Below are positions 4,601 through 64,000 of a stretch of 64,000 nt of DNA, one piece after another. The position numbers and the translations under genes were made by a program. The notes under the pieces were generated by a model. The model was not told the origin of the DNA. It saw only the letters and a list, made by a program, of their open reading frames with translations, and did not search any database. The stretch comes from a phage: sequence record NC_103192.1. One strand, written 5' to 3'. Within the stretch, counting starts at the first letter, position 1, and each line of letters opens with the position of its first letter.

Positions 4601-4720
4601 ATGAGCACTACACGCCAGCACACAAAGGTAACCATCATCGTTTGCATCATTGGTTACATCCTGGCGCAAATGTTGATGGGTAGCGCCAATGATTTCGCAA
4701 AATTTTTCTTAAACTTCTAA
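4601..4720 (+). CDS. Small hydrophobic peptide (39 aa)
   Basis: Strong SD aaaggagg; predicted single TM helix VTIIVCIIGYILAQMLM; below the ORF-track size cutoff. Confidence 0.4.
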   Translation: MSTTRQHTKVTIIVCIIGYILAQMLMGSANDFAKFFLNF

Positions 4721-4800
4721 TTGACAAGCTAACTTAAATCAGTATAATACTAAGCACATAAACGGGAAAACTTCCCAGAACACCAAAAGGAGAAAACATT

Positions 4801-5151
4801 ATGAATACTTCCATCACTATGACCGCCGAAGAAAAAGCCCTGCAGATCGCCGCTCTGAAAAAACAGATTGCAGAACTTGAAGACAAGATCGACAATTTTG
4901 AAATCGACGAAGACAAACACGACGATAAATATGATGAATGGTTAGACGAGATCTACGGCGAAATCATGATCGGAAACATTTCTTTTCTTCCGTCGCGTAT
5001 CCTCAAGGAGCTAGATCCTATCGCTTACCGCTGCGGATTTAGCGACTACATCGACAGCCTAGATATTGAGGACGATGAAGAATACCAGGAATTGCAGACA
5101 GAGCTCGAAGAAGTGAAAGAGGAGCTTTCAGAGCTGGAAGAAAACGAGTAA
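4801..5151 (+). CDS. Hypothetical acidic protein
   Basis: SD aaaaggagaaaac; leader hairpin; very acidic, heptad-like C-terminal half. Confidence 0.5.
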   Translation: MNTSITMTAEEKALQIAALKKQIAELEDKIDNFEIDEDKHDDKYDEWLDEIYGEIMIGNISFLPSRILKELDPIAYRCGFSDYIDSLDIEDDEEYQELQTELEEVKEELSELEENE

Positions 5152-5198
5152 ATTTATTTTTAGATGGCCTTGACACCAGGGCCATCAATAAAGTAAAC
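5151..5198 (+). promoter_or_regulatory. Repeated hairpin-promoter element (copy 2)
   Basis: Same 48-nt element as at 4521. Confidence 0.55.
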
Positions 5199-5240
5199 TT
5201 TATACTGTTAACACTTAACCAATACAGAGGAGTTAAAACC

Positions 5241-5486
5241 ATGGCCGCACTAATTACCAAATATTATGCCCCTACCAACACCAAAAGCGCCCGTATCATG
5301 GTAAAAGGCTTCGGACGTAAAAAGGTGTACACCTGGGATTATTCCCTAGACATGGAAGACAACTACACCAACGCGATGACAGATTTTATTAATGAGCTGA
5401 ACACGCGGATCTTGACAAATTATAAAATTACCGATATTGCCTATGTAGGGGAAGGCGGGATCTGTTTTGTCGGTATCGTCAAATAA
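5241..5486 (+). CDS. Hypothetical early protein
   Basis: SD agaggag upstream of ATG. Confidence 0.5.
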   Translation: MAALITKYYAPTNTKSARIMVKGFGRKKVYTWDYSLDMEDNYTNAMTDFINELNTRILTNYKITDIAYVGEGGICFVGIVK

Positions 5487-60815: not shown

Positions 60816-60903
60816 GGTGAGTTAATTCCGTAGGGGTAGCGGGGCAGACTGTAAATCTGTTATCATTGCGATTCGGGTGGTTCGACTCCATCACTCACCA
60901 CCA
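60816..60903 (+). tRNA. tRNA-Tyr (anticodon GTA), long variable arm
   Basis: Acceptor GGTGAGT/ACTCACC, anticodon arm CAGACTGTAAATCTG as in E. coli tRNA-Tyr, T-loop TTCGACT, CCA. Confidence 0.7.
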
Positions 60904-61017: not shown

Positions 61018-61108
61018 AGAGGGTAGGGAGCAATGGTGCTCAAGCGGTCTTGAAAACCGTCCCGTTGAGGATGACTCGATGATGGTTCGATTCCATTATC
61101 CTCTGCCA
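61018..61108 (+). tRNA. tRNA-Ser (anticodon TGA), long variable arm
   Basis: Acceptor AGAGGGT/ATCCTCT, anticodon arm CGGTCTTGAAAACCG, T-loop TTCGATT, CCA. Confidence 0.7.
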
Positions 61109-61206: not shown

Positions 61207-61305
61207 GCTAGGTAAGCCCTTTGGCAAGGGCGAGGATTTTTAATCCTGAAAATAGACGAGGTAGTCGTTGAATACATAGGTGGTTCGATTCCATCACCTA
61301 GCACC
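61207..61305 (+). tRNA. Atypical tRNA-like element (type II shape, irregular anticodon arm)
   Basis: Acceptor GCTAGGT/ACCTAGC, D-arm GCCC/GGGC, T-loop TTCGATT, long variable arm; anticodon region is either a 5-nt loop or a 4-bp stem with TTTTTAA loop; no CCA. Confidence 0.35.
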
Positions 61306-61914: not shown

Positions 61915-61952
61915 TTAACCCGCCCCGTTAGCTGTATAGCTGCGGGGTTTTT
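61915..61952 (+). terminator. Rho-independent terminator
   Basis: ccgccccgttagctgtatagctgcgggg hairpin followed by a T-run. Confidence 0.6.
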
Positions 61953-61971
61953 TCGTTTCTGGAGCCTTAAA

Positions 61972-62370
61972 ATGATTTCAGTTTTAACATGGCTGGGTAG
62001 GTATAGAGGGATCATAAAAGGTTTAGTTTTTGCAGCTGCTCTAGGCACAGCATACCTGGGGGCCGTGTATTGGTTTAACTCTAAGCTTAACGCTGCTTAT
62101 CAGGAAGGCGTAACAGCAACAGATTTGAAGTGGGAGCAGATCCTTGACCAGCAACAAAAGCGAGCCGACAGGATTAAAATGGGACATGCCGAGGAGGTGA
62201 AAAACCTTGAAAAATCCCTTTCTGACTTACAGGATAAGCTGGAGGCAGCTAAGATGGCAGGTAAAGAAAAGCAGATTATTTACCTCCAATCACCTGAAGG
62301 TAAGAAGTCAACACTCCCTGATCAGCTTATAGATATTTATAATGAGAGTATCAATCAGGAGGGTCGATGA
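61972..62370 (+). CDS. i-spanin-like protein (Rz-like)
   Basis: N-terminal TM segment plus coiled-coil periplasmic domain; overlaps downstream lipoprotein gene. Confidence 0.55.
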   Translation: MISVLTWLGRYRGIIKGLVFAAALGTAYLGAVYWFNSKLNAAYQEGVTATDLKWEQILDQQQKRADRIKMGHAEEVKNLEKSLSDLQDKLEAAKMAGKEKQIIYLQSPEGKKSTLPDQLIDIYNESINQEGR

Positions 62371-62654
62371 GAGTTGCTACACTATTTATTGTGTGCTTGT
62401 TATTATGTGGGTGTGCAACCAGTGTTGAGAAAGAATACAAGATTGACCCTCCAGATGTAGGAAGGTTGATTGTTAAACCCCCAGAAGGTGCTATGAAACC
62501 ACCTGCTAAAGCTATGCCTTTGAAGAAAGGTGCGCCAGATGCAGTAAATTCTGGCATTATGAGGGATAATAATCTGTCTTGTAGCAATGATAGAGCTAAA
62601 TTGATCATTTTGCAAGACTATATTAGAACACTTTTTCCAAAGGAGAGAGGTTAA
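62367..62654 (+). CDS. o-spanin-like lipoprotein (Rz1-like)
   Basis: Signal with lipobox-like LLCGCAT; proline-rich mature part. Confidence 0.55.
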   Translation: MRVATLFIVCLLLCGCATSVEKEYKIDPPDVGRLIVKPPEGAMKPPAKAMPLKKGAPDAVNSGIMRDNNLSCSNDRAKLIILQDYIRTLFPKERG

Positions 62655-63079
62655 TGTCTAAGATTTACGGACCGTGTTCTGAAAAGCAGAAGATGATCCT
62701 CGAAAACGATGCAGATATTTTGGTAATCGGCGGTGCCGCAGGGTCTGGCAAGTCGTTCCTCTTGCAGTTGATGCCACTTAAAATTATTGATGACCCCCAC
62801 AGCTCTGTGGTTATGTTCCGAAGAACAACCCCACAGTTGGAAGGTGAGGGTGGGCTATGGCCTAAAGCAGTAGCTATTTATAGCGATCTGCCTGAAAACA
62901 TTAAGCCAAAGTTCAGAGAGAAGGATCATAAGTTCATTTTCCCACGGTTTGATCCGGGCACTGGCAAGTGGGATAGAAGCAAAAAGGGAGCTGTTGTAAA
63001 ATACTGCCACATGGAGTATGTACAAGATAAGCTTAACCATCAAGGGCTTGAGTACACCATGGTTTGCTTTGATGAGGGT
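62654..63079 (+). CDS. terL: Terminase large subunit, exon 1 (ATPase N-terminal part)
   Basis: Walker A GGAAGSGKS, Walker B MVCFDEG; reading frame then hits a stop where the intron begins. Confidence 0.7.
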
Positions 63080-63398
63080 TAATTTGTAGCTCTCGTAAAA
63101 CCTCCCTAATTGCGGGGAAATCTTTATTATTGACACCACCAACCTGTCATGGTAACATGACAGAGGCTTCGAAGAGAGATCGAAGGTATGGTAACAGTGT
63201 GTTAATTTAGATAATCCGCAGCGAAGCATCCGAAAGGATGAACGTTCAACGACTAGTCGAAAGACGTAGAATCAAGCGATTCGAAACGGGAGGATAAGCG
63301 GTTGTTGTCGCTTATAAGATATAGTCTGGTCTGCATGGAGACATGCAGCTGCCTGAAAATGGCGGGGCAAGACTAGCGACCTTGCCCGAACATAAACG
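63080..63398 (+). mobile_element. Group I intron (ORF-less) in terminase large subunit gene
   Basis: GTTCAACGACTAGTC and AAGATATAGTC core elements (P7-like), P9-like hairpin; exon 1 ends on U of ggt; frame resumes TQFEWEQIDYLMSRL. Confidence 0.6.
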
Positions 63399-63716
63399 AC
63401 GCAATTCGAATGGGAGCAGATAGACTACCTAATGTCTCGTCTGCGATCTCAGTCAAAGTATCCATCAAGAATGGTTATCAGCTGTAACCCCGACTCAGAA
63501 CACATGCTTGCCAAACTGATTAGGTGGTGGTTGGACGATGAAGGGTATCCAGATCCGGAGAAATGTGGTAAGAAAAGATATTTTATCCGACGCGACGGTG
63601 AATTTATCTGGGGAGACTCTAAGGAAGAGTTAATAGAGAAATACACCACGGTTAACGGACTAGGTGTGGAGATCAAGCCAAGACCGTTGTCATTCTCGTT
63701 CATAGGCGCAACCATT
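63399..63716 (+). CDS. terL: Terminase large subunit, exon 2
   Basis: Continues the ATPase domain (RMVISCNPD region) in frame after the intron; ends at a stop followed by a second intron. Confidence 0.6.
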
Positions 63717-64000
63717 AAATGATAGTGGCTTCGTGCAGAAATGCACGTCGAATAACTTCGTTAATTGCTGGAAAATCCTTTATGAAAGGACAATCAGCAG
63801 CCAAGCCTGAATATTCAGGAAGGTTCAACGACTATCCTGAGAGGGAGTAGGGCGCAAGCTTATGGCGCTCGAAAAGCGAAGCACCCTGAGATGGGTGGTG
63901 ATATAGTCTACTCTGCATGGTAACATGCAGCGGCACGTAATGGTGCGGAGGGTGGTGTTGCGACCACCCTTGAATATAAGGATTCGATAATCCTGTCTGC
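63717..64000 (+). mobile_element. Second group I intron in terminase gene (3' end beyond window)
   Basis: GTTCAACGACTA and GATATAGTC elements and a P9 hairpin closely resembling intron 1 and the nrdD intron. Confidence 0.55.

What the first reader, a model, noticed from the sequence alone, without database searches (positions are those of the whole stretch)
62654..64000. Terminase large subunit gene interrupted by at least two group I introns
The ATPase reading frame stops right after Walker B (MVCFDEG), then 319 nt of structured sequence with group I core elements (GTTCAACGACTAGTC; AAGATATAGTC) follow, the frame resumes for about 106 codons (RMVISCNPD), and a second intron-like segment with the same elements begins and runs off the window. 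Introns in an essential packaging gene imply obligatory self-splicing for virion production; the first intron carries no endonuclease ORF.
Basis: partly seen in the sequence, partly recalled or inferred. Interest (0 to 1): 0.65.

Follow-up and report, generated by a model that had tools for sequence, protein, structure and literature searches.

The report
Two group I introns in rV5-type terminase
The DNA-packaging (large terminase) gene of this rV5-like E. coli phage is split by two short self-splicing-type group I introns; this is real, but it was already published for phage rV5 in 2013 and is annotated in GenBank.

Summary
The window ends in the large terminase (TerL) gene of an rV5-like coliphage (Vequintavirus). 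Rfam's group I intron model hits both inserts well above threshold (84.2 and 92.7 bits; gathering score 50). Naturally intronless alleles in sister phages (isim, S127) fix the junctions to the nucleotide. Exon 1 is 62654-63079, intron 1 is 63080-63398 (319 nt) and exon 2 is 63399-63715. Intron 2 is 63716-63981 (266 nt), and exon 3 runs from 63982 to the window end. Each 5' exon ends in the U of a P1 U.G pair, and each intron ends in G. Joining the exons rebuilds the 515-aa TerL. Neither intron here carries an endonuclease ORF. Sister alleles carry an EndoVII-type ORF in P8 of intron 1 and an HNH ORF in P6a of intron 2. One correction: intron 2 does not run off the window. It ends 19 nt before the edge. 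Among 119 database genomes with this TerL, 52 have intron 1 and about 23 have intron 2, in all four combinations. The split gene is annotated in rV5 ("ORF64ABC") and described by Kropinski et al. 2013. Verdict: correct, well supported, already known. Splicing itself is inferred and has not been shown for this genus.

The parts
62654..63079 (+). TerL exon 1 (426 nt, 142 codons: Walker A GAAGSGKS to Walker B MVCFDEG). Its last base, U63079, is the P1 U.G wobble nucleotide.
   Evidence: ORF and Pfam Terminase_6N. The boundary comes from the intronless alleles isim and S127.
63080..63398 (+). Group I intron 1: 319 nt, phase 0, inserted between DEG and TQF. It is ORF-less, begins with an in-frame UAA and ends in G63398. 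It has no P2 and a large P5 extension (P5a/b/c).
   Evidence: Rfam RF00028 at 84.2 bits. Helices verified. MFE z = -6.2. Junctions.
63074..63094 (+). Intron 1 P1 hairpin: exon/intron GAGGGU|UA (63074-63081) pairs with the internal guide UAGCUCUC (63087-63094). U63079 pairs with G63089.
   Evidence: 8/8 pairs; Rfam alignment; MFE.
63244..63258 (+). Intron 1 J6/7 and P7 5' strand (GUUCAACGACUAGUC). GACUA at 63251-63255 pairs with UAGUC at 63322-63326. P7.1 (63256-63265) and P7.2 (63269-63282) follow.
63294..63315 (+). Intron 1 P8 hairpin (AUAAGCG/CGCUUAU). In sister alleles (HdK5, rV5_ev146) 63296-63313 is replaced by 582 nt carrying an Endonuclease VII-type ORF.
63316..63326 (+). Intron 1 J8/7 and P7 3' strand (AAGAUAUAGUC).
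63331..63387 (+). Intron 1 P9 (63331-63348), P9.1 (63349-63365) and P9.2 (63365-63387).
   Evidence: 7/7, 5/5 and 7/7 pairs.
63399..63715 (+). TerL exon 2 (317 nt; TQFEWEQIDYLMSRLRS...ISCNPD...SFIGAT-I). Its last base, U63715, is the P1 U.G wobble nucleotide of intron 2.
63716..63981 (+). Group I intron 2: 266 nt, phase 2, splitting the Ile codon AT|A in FIGAT-I-FDNP. It is ORF-less, has an in-frame UGA 4 nt in, and ends in G63981. It has P2 and a short P5.
   Evidence: Rfam RF00028 at 92.7 bits. Boundaries from intron-2-less alleles. Helices. Compensatory changes. MFE z = -4.75.
63712..63728 (+). Intron 2 P1 hairpin: CCAU|UA (63712-63717) pairs with UAGUGG (63723-63728). U63715 pairs with G63725.
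   Evidence: 6/6 pairs, invariant in 6 alleles.
63802..63822 (+). Intron 2 P6a hairpin region. In sister alleles (rV5, HdK5) it is replaced by about 730 nt carrying an HNH_3 + HTH homing endonuclease ORF.
63823..63908 (+). Intron 2 catalytic core: J6/7 and P7 (GACUA 63830-63834 pairing with UAGUC 63904-63908), P7.1, P7.2, the P3 3' strand, P8 and J8/7.
63982..64000 (+). First 19 nt of TerL exon 3 (A TTC GAT AAT CCT GTC TGC = (I)FDNPVC), cut by the window end.
   Evidence: Identical to the sequence after the site in intronless alleles.

Best explanation
The window ends in the single large-terminase gene of an rV5-like coliphage. Two ORF-less group I introns of the phage IA type (P7.1/P7.2 present) interrupt it inside its two most conserved ATPase-domain motifs. 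These are just after Walker B (DEG|TQF) and within FIGAT-I|FDNP.

Inferred mechanism: the late pre-mRNA folds each intron into its ribozyme core. An exogenous guanosine attacks after the U of the P1 U.G pair (U63079, U63715). The freed 5' exon then attacks after the terminal G (G63398, G63981). This ligates three exons into one 1548-nt mRNA for the 515-aa TerL. Stop codons at or near each intron start (UAA at +1, UGA at +5) terminate ribosomes that read unspliced RNA.

The introns are relics or partners of homing elements. Sister alleles carry an EndoVII-type gene in P8 (intron 1) or an HNH gene in P6a (intron 2). These would cut intronless alleles during co-infection and copy the intron in, together with the flanking synonymous exon changes. 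The ORF-less copies here cannot home on their own. They can spread by ordinary recombination or with an endonuclease supplied in trans.

Shown here: identity as group I introns, exact insertion sites, ORF restoration and population polymorphism. Inferred: actual splicing, its autonomy, and homing.
For: - Rfam RF00028 gives full-length hits of 84.2 and 92.7 bits, E = 5.5e-20 and 1.7e-22. The same holds in RudolfGeigy and rV5.
- The intronless alleles isim and S127 carry one uninterrupted 1548-nt TerL at 99% protein identity. Deleting 63080-63398 and 63716-63981 reproduces it exactly in frame.
- Each 5' exon ends in U paired to G in P1, and each intron ends in G.
- All canonical helices, including the P7 pseudoknot, pair perfectly.
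- In six intron-2 alleles 98.6% of cells pair, against 36-47% when the partners are slid. Three pairs show compensatory double changes, in P2, P5 and P9.2.
- MFE z-scores are -6.2 and -4.75.
- In 10 alleles the last exon-1 base is T in all 7 intron-1-bearing alleles and C in all 3 that lack it. The -3 base at site 2 is C in all 5 intron-2-bearing alleles and A in all 5 that lack it. Both changes are synonymous and both lie at P1-pairing positions.
- Counts: TerL exon 1 in 119 records, intron 1 in 52 (30 with the EndoVII ORF), intron 2 in about 23 (15 with the HNH ORF). All four presence/absence combinations occur.
- The endonuclease ORFs match Pfam PF02945 and PF13392.
- Viable plaque-forming phages have the same architecture and are annotated as joins.
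- It is published for rV5 (PMC3606486).
- RT-PCR showed splicing of a TerL intron two codons upstream in the related Certrevirus CB7 (PMC7344957).
- The introns share sequence blocks with the T4 td and nrdB, SPbeta bnrdE and phiAGATE TerL introns.
Against: - No transcript data exist for this phage or genus in the literature I could search.
- A canonical P10 pairing with the 3' exon is at best 3 bp for either intron.
- Self-splicing without protein help is not guaranteed. The related phiAGATE TerL intron spliced in vivo but not in vitro (PMC11878797).
- Covariation support rests on only six closely related alleles.
- Exon 3 beyond 19 nt is outside the window and was taken from RudolfGeigy.
Confidence: 0.93

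Rival explanations
1. The introns are spliced in vivo but are not autonomously self-splicing. They would need a host or phage RNA chaperone or maturase-like factor, so 'self-splicing' in the strict in-vitro sense would fail. This is a refinement of the best explanation, not a true alternative to it.
For: The phiAGATE TerL intron shares 70% identity with intron 1 over 183 nt. It spliced in infected cells but not in vitro (PMC11878797). P10 is weak in both introns.
Against: Both cores are complete and score as high as classical self-splicing phage introns. There is no intron ORF that could act as a maturase. Peripheral stabilising helices (P5abc-like, P7.1/7.2, P9.1/9.2) are present.
Confidence: 0.2
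2. TerL is genuinely made as separate polypeptides that assemble after translation, as reported for the split NrdA of Aeromonas phage Aeh1. On this view the inserts are not removed from the RNA.
For: GenBank records such as slur16 and HdK5 annotate the pieces as separate CDSs. Exon 2 contains an in-frame ATG at 63432 with a GGGAG about 15 nt upstream.
Against: - The breaks fall immediately after Walker B and inside a codon (phase 2). Exon 2 and exon 3 therefore have no start at their beginnings, and the ATG at 63432 would drop 11 conserved residues with a poorly spaced SD.
- The inserts are full group I ribozymes.
- Intronless alleles encode one continuous protein.
- The separate CDS annotations come from automatic pipelines. 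Curated records use joins.
Confidence: 0.02
3. The introns are decayed and no longer splice, so this TerL copy is a pseudogene in a defective phage or a misassembled sequence.
For: Both introns have lost, or never had, their endonuclease genes. The window is not identical to any database genome; the best match is 97.5%.
Against: - The same ORF-less double-intron allele is present in RudolfGeigy, an isolated plaque-forming phage.
- Core helices are intact with 100% pairing.
- Substitutions between alleles are compensatory or lie in loops.
- The exons carry no frameshifts or stops.
Confidence: 0.03

Closest known systems
The TerL introns of Escherichia phage rV5 (NC_011041 'ORF64ABC'; Kropinski et al. 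2013, Virol J 10:76, PMC3606486) and the BASEL phage RudolfGeigy (MZ501102)
   Same: Same gene and same two insertion sites, with 96-99% nucleotide identity. RudolfGeigy has the identical configuration of two ORF-less introns.
   Different: rV5 itself carries an HNH homing endonuclease in intron 2, which is absent here. The window's intron 2 has a shorter P5 hairpin (UCCUUU/AAAGGA against UCCG/CGGA) and is 266 nt rather than 268 nt.
The TerL intron of Pectobacterium phage CB7/phiTE (Certrevirus, Vequintavirinae), with RT-PCR-verified splicing (PMC7344957)
   Same: Same subfamily, same gene and the same Walker B hotspot. It is an HNH-associated group I intron.
   Different: It is inserted two codons upstream (VD|EGTQF rather than DEG|TQF) and carries an HNH ORF. 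Rfam's gathering threshold did not pick it up, probably because the ORF interrupts the core.
Phage T4 td, nrdB and nrdD(sunY) introns, and SPbeta bnrdE introns (classical phage subgroup IA introns)
   Same: They share the J6/7-P7, J8/7-P7' and P9 sequence blocks, with 73-83% identity over 55-190 nt. They share the P7.1/P7.2 architecture. Endonuclease ORFs are looped out of peripheral stems: the P6 loop placement in sister alleles of intron 2 matches T4 td/I-TevI (my own knowledge). They also have an early in-frame stop after the 5' splice site.
   Different: The host gene is a late packaging gene rather than a nucleotide-metabolism gene. The copies here are ORF-less.
Multi-intron TerL genes of Bastillevirinae (SIOphi, phiAGATE, Moonbeam; PMC11878797) and the Lactobacillus phage LL-H terminase intron (Mikkonen & Alatossava 1995, cited in PMC3606486)
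   Same: Group I introns in TerL, sometimes two or three per gene. The phiAGATE TerL intron shows detectable sequence similarity to intron 1.
   Different: The host phyla and phage families differ. Splicing (and exon skipping in SIOphi) has been shown experimentally there but not for Vequintavirus.

Membership tests
Group I catalytic intron (Rfam RF00028) | Conserved catalytic core P3-P9 scored by covariance model at or above the gathering threshold | tested here: met
   84.2 and 92.7 bits against a gathering score of 50, with the full model 1-253 matched.
Group I catalytic intron (Rfam RF00028) | P1 helix formed by the 5' exon end and an internal guide sequence, with a U.G wobble at the 5' splice site | tested here: met
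   U63079.G63089 within an 8-bp P1, and U63715.G63725 within a 6-bp P1. Splice sites were fixed independently by intronless alleles.
Group I catalytic intron (Rfam RF00028) | Terminal guanosine (omega-G) as the last intron nucleotide | tested here: met
   G63398 and G63981 immediately precede the exon sequence seen in intronless alleles.
Group I catalytic intron (Rfam RF00028) | P7 pseudoknot helix (guanosine-binding site) between J6/7 and J8/7 | tested here: met
   GACUA/UAGUC pair 5/5 in both introns and are invariant in 6 alleles of intron 2.
Group I catalytic intron (Rfam RF00028) | P10 pairing between the internal guide and the 3' exon | tested here: inconclusive
   Only offset 3-bp pairings can be drawn by eye from the sequences printed (intron 1: UUG with CAA; intron 2: GAU with AUU). 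These are too short to distinguish from chance.
Group I catalytic intron (Rfam RF00028) | Precise excision restores a continuous, conserved ORF | tested here: met
   The joined exons give a 1548-nt, 515-aa TerL. It is colinear with the intronless isim and S127 TerL, with 23 and 45 mostly synonymous differences over the 762 in-window exon nt.
Group I catalytic intron (Rfam RF00028) | GTP-dependent self-splicing of the transcript | not testable with these tools
   This needs in-vitro transcription and splicing, or RT-PCR. The only supporting data come from relatives (CB7; Bastillevirinae).
Subgroup IA (phage-type, IA2-like) | Extra helices P7.1 and P7.2 between the P7 5' strand and the P3 3' strand | tested here: met
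   Intron 1: P7.1 at 63256-63265 and P7.2 at 63269-63282. Intron 2: P7.1 at 63835-63845 and P7.2 at 63850-63870. The distinction between IA1, IA2 and IA3 was not tested formally.
Mobile (homing) group I intron | Intron-encoded homing endonuclease gene | tested here: not met
   There is no ORF longer than 43 aa with a start codon in either intron of this window. Sister alleles do carry EndoVII (PF02945) or HNH_3 (PF13392) ORFs at P8 and P6a. The copies here are therefore ORF-less derivatives or precursors, not autonomous homing elements.
Mobile (homing) group I intron | Presence/absence polymorphism at an identical site among close relatives, with linked flanking-exon markers (co-conversion signature) | tested here: met
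   52 of 119 records have intron 1 and about 23 of 119 have intron 2, in all four combinations. Linkage with the synonymous flanking changes was perfect in 10 alleles.
Terminase large subunit (Pfam PF03237 Terminase_6N type) | Walker A/B ATPase N-domain matching the family HMM | tested here: met
   Exon 1 scores 25.6 bits (cut-off 22). Exon 2 scores 21.8 bits alone and continues the same profile (positions 2-104 then 111-162).

The most novel reading that the evidence does not exclude
The two introns have nearly identical P9 hairpins and J8/7-P7 segments and sit only 317 nt apart. They might therefore sometimes splice as a unit, joining the intron-1 5' splice site to the intron-2 3' splice site. 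Exon skipping of this kind was reported for the two-intron TerL of Bacillus phage SIOphi. Here it would skip exon 2 and give a frameshifted 145-aa Walker A/B fragment (...FDEGIR*). Splicing choice, or GTP-dependent splicing rate, would then become a regulator of how much functional terminase is made late in infection. The introns would be more than neutral parasites.
Probability: 0.06. Interest if true: 0.5.

Novelty: already known. Interest (0 to 1): 0.17.

Why it matters
The main use of this result is quality control. Automatic annotation still splits this gene into two to five 'hypothetical' or 'terminase-like' CDSs in many Vequintavirus records (HdK5, slur16, phiWec193). TerL is widely used as a phylogenetic and taxonomic marker, so knowing the exact junctions prevents errors.

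Biologically it is a textbook example of the homing-endonuclease life cycle. One genus holds empty sites, ORF-less introns and endonuclease-bearing introns in all combinations, with linked exon changes at P1-pairing positions. This could serve as a convenient E. coli model for intron homing in a late structural gene. It does not open a new question.

Tried and rejected
1. I initially considered both G63398 and G63401 as the 3' splice site of intron 1 (DEG-TQF or DEG-QF). The intronless alleles (1548 nt...DEGTQFEW...) settle it at G63398.

2. I suspected that the RT-PCR-validated CB7/phiTE intron occupies the same site as intron 1. It does not. It lies two codons upstream.

3. Rfam at the gathering threshold did not detect the endonuclease-bearing alleles (HdK5 both introns, rV5 intron 2, CB7). 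This reflects the 580-730-nt ORF insertions, not absence of the ribozyme. BLAST shows that both flanking halves are conserved.

4. Acinetobacter phage Ab7 looked split in tblastn (2 pieces), but it reads through in one frame with extra protein sequence, so it has no intron.

5. The TerL of Aeromonas phage TS9 has a group I intron (89 bits) plus an HNH ORF, but I could not place its junctions confidently and dropped it.

6. Simple string searches first mislocated several helices (P5 and P7.1 of intron 1; P3, P7.1 and P9.1 of intron 2). I corrected them with position-restricted searches.

7. I did not use the large protein-database, structure-prediction or metagenome tools. The question was settled without them.
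Full report
**What is in the sequence**

The last 1.35 kb of the window reads as follows.
- An ATG at 62654 overlaps the stop of the upstream o-spanin gene.
- It opens a 142-codon frame with a Walker A motif (GAAGSGKS) and a Walker B motif (MVCFDEG), then a TAA.
- About 320 nt further on, the same protein continues in frame (…QFEWEQIDYLMSRLRS…RMVISCNPD…).
- That frame stops again at 63720-63722.

Pfam assigns both coding pieces to consecutive parts of Terminase_6N. Profile positions 2-104 match the first piece and 111-162 the second.

**Are the inserts group I introns?**

Yes. A gathering-threshold Rfam scan of the whole 64-kb window returns only six tRNAs and two full-length matches to RF00028.
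- 63070-63348 scores 84.2 bits (E = 5.5e-20).
- 63706-63930 scores 92.7 bits (E = 1.7e-22).
- The gathering score is 50.

I then checked the helices by direct base-pair counting.
- Intron 1 has P1, P3, P4, P5 with a large P5a/b/c extension, P6/P6a, the P7 pseudoknot (GACUA/UAGUC), P7.1, P7.2, P8, P9, P9.1 and P9.2. All pair except two mismatches in the 7-bp P5.
- Intron 2 has the same set plus P2, with a short P5.
- The presence of P7.1 and P7.2 marks the phage-type subgroup IA.
- Thermodynamic folds are much more stable than shuffles, with z = -6.2 and -4.75.

As a test independent of Rfam, I aligned six alleles of intron 2, including an 87%-identical copy from an Avunavirus.
- 98.6% of cells pair in my hand-specified structure, against 36-47% when the partners are slid.
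- Three pairs carry double compensatory changes, in P2, P5 and P9.2.
- With six close relatives this is supportive rather than decisive.

**Exact junctions**

A tblastn search with the joined exons found Vequintavirus genomes with an uninterrupted TerL at 99% protein identity. These are isim and S127 BCL3, both 1548 nt and 515 aa. Other relatives lack only intron 2 (slur16, JohannBauhin, rV5_ev146) or only intron 1 (C7). Aligning these gives:

| Feature | Coordinates | Length | Note |
|---|---|---|---|
| Exon 1 | 62654-63079 | 426 nt | ends at a codon boundary |
| Intron 1 | 63080-63398 | 319 nt | phase 0, DEG\|TQF |
| Exon 2 | 63399-63715 | 317 nt | |
| Intron 2 | 63716-63981 | 266 nt | phase 2, AT\|A |
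| Exon 3 | 63982-64000 | 19 nt in window | cut by the window end |

- Each 5' exon ends in a U that pairs with G in P1 (U63079.G63089 and U63715.G63725).
- Each intron ends in G.
- Intron 1 starts with an in-frame UAA. Intron 2 has an in-frame UGA at +5.
- The statement that the second intron runs off the window is wrong.
- A convincing P10 could not be drawn for either intron.

**No endonuclease here, but in sister alleles**

Neither intron in the window contains an ORF of homing-endonuclease size.
- In HdK5 and rV5_ev146 the apical part of P8 of intron 1 (window equivalent 63296-63313) is replaced by 582 nt. This encodes a 196-aa Endonuclease VII-family protein (PF02945, E = 2e-21).
- The stop codon of that ORF is the UAG of the P7 3' strand.
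- In rV5 and HdK5 the P6a hairpin of intron 2 (63802-63822) is replaced by about 730 nt. This encodes an HNH_3 + HTH protein.

**Population picture**

In the phage collection:
- 119 records carry this exon 1.
- 52 carry intron 1, and 30 of those carry the EndoVII ORF.
- About 23 carry intron 2 at ≥95% identity, and 15 of those carry the HNH ORF.
- All four presence/absence combinations occur.

In the ten alleles I examined, linkage with flanking exon changes was perfect.
- The last base of exon 1 is T in all seven intron-1 bearers and C in all three empty sites.
- The base at -3 of site 2 is C in all five intron-2 bearers and A in all five empty sites.
- Both changes are synonymous, and both positions pair with the intron's guide sequence in P1.
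- This is the expected signature of co-conversion during homing, of selection for P1 pairing, or both.

Both insertion sites lie in the most conserved TerL motifs (DE[G/A]TQ and FIGATxxDNP). These motifs are conserved even in Acinetobacter phage Ab7. This fits the known preference of homing endonucleases for conserved targets (PMC3984707).

**Mechanism**

The best explanation is ordinary group I splicing of the late TerL transcript in two independent reactions, giving one mRNA for a 515-aa terminase.
- Shown here: the ribozyme identity, the junctions, ORF restoration and the polymorphism.
- Inferred: that splicing happens. The inference is strong, because plaque-forming phages (rV5, RudolfGeigy) carry the same interrupted single-copy essential gene.
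- Experimental support comes only from relatives. RT-PCR and Sanger sequencing showed splicing of a TerL intron in the Certrevirus CB7. I found that intron to lie two codons upstream of intron 1's site. In-vitro and in-vivo splicing has also been shown for TerL introns in Bastillevirinae.
- The latter paper shows that the phiAGATE TerL intron, which shares sequence with intron 1, spliced only in vivo. I therefore give about 0.2 to the refinement that a cofactor is needed.

The two true rivals are poorly supported.
- The 'separate polypeptides' reading fails because intron 2 splits a codon, and because exon 2 lacks a start codon with a usable ribosome-binding site at its beginning.
- The 'decayed pseudogene' reading fails because the cores are intact, the substitutions are compensatory, and a viable phage has the same allele.

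**Comparison with what is known, and novelty**

GenBank's rV5 record annotates the gene as a three-part join, 'ORF64ABC', with an HNH gene inside. Kropinski et al. 2013 has a section 'Introns in terminase' and thanks D. Shub for defining the intron location. The BASEL collection annotates RudolfGeigy, which has the same ORF-less double-intron allele at 97.5% identity, as a three-part join. The finding is therefore already known.

What I did not find in the searchable literature:
- a structural description of these introns;
- the allele survey given above;
- any direct demonstration of splicing in Vequintavirus.

These are incremental additions.

**Verdict**

The biological feature is a well-understood kind that has already been described for this phage group. 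Interest is low (0.17).

Noticed in passing
window 61207-61305 (+): A 99-nt tRNA-like gene inside the phage tRNA cluster. ARAGORN calls it 'tRNA-???' with a 4-base anticodon (atcc), and Rfam's tRNA model gives only 35.5 bits. It folds into a cloverleaf with a 6-bp D stem and a long variable arm, z = -3.7. It is conserved with the same score in rV5, HdK5, ev146 and isim. It is unannotated in the rV5 RefSeq record and labelled 'tRNA-OTHER' elsewhere. Its identity and function are unresolved.
   Followed up: partly
window 60816-60900 and 61018-61108 (+): The two tRNA finders disagree. Rfam reports a tRNA at 60816-60900 (39 bits) that ARAGORN does not call. ARAGORN reports tRNA-Ser(tga) at 61018-61108, which Rfam does not reach at gathering threshold. 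rV5 annotates tRNA-Tyr and tRNA-Ser at the corresponding places.
   Followed up: no
GenBank MG0656xx records (e.g. L013 = MG065658.1 'UNVERIFIED: Campylobacter phage C7'): About 18-24 records labelled Campylobacter jejuni phages are 97% identical to this E. coli Vequintavirus TerL region and are classified as Vequintavirus. The host label looks wrong (contaminant or mislabelled isolates). It inflates apparent host range in database summaries.
   Followed up: no
L003 (HdK5) 4699-5289; window equivalent 63322-63324: In the endonuclease-bearing alleles of intron 1, the EndoVII-type ORF ends on the UAG that forms part of the P7 3' strand. The coding sequence therefore overlaps the ribozyme's catalytic core.
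   Followed up: partly
window 63071-63079 and 63708-63715 (exon bases flanking both insertion sites): Synonymous exon variants are perfectly linked to intron presence in 10 alleles: GGT against GGC at site 1 and ACC against ACA at site 2. Both lie at positions that pair with the intron guide sequence. I did not distinguish whether the empty-site variants are endonuclease-resistant or simply unconverted.
   Followed up: partly
L012 (Escherichia phage 18-1-2, Avunavirus) 1670-2673; L011 (Aeromonas phage TS9) 1595-1837: An 87-88% identical copy of intron 2, with an HNH ORF, sits in the TerL of a different genus (Avunavirus). An unrelated Aeromonas phage TerL also carries a group I intron (89 bits) plus an HNH ORF in the Walker B region. 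The Walker B region of TerL seems to be a recurrent intron target across phage groups.
   Followed up: partly
window 61972-62654 (+): i-spanin (61972-62370) and o-spanin (62367-62654) genes lie immediately upstream. The o-spanin stop overlaps the TerL start (TAATG). Names were transferred from the RudolfGeigy annotation. A GC-rich hairpin followed by a T-run at about 61920-61955 looks like an intrinsic terminator after the preceding ORF. I did not run the terminator scan on it.
   Followed up: no
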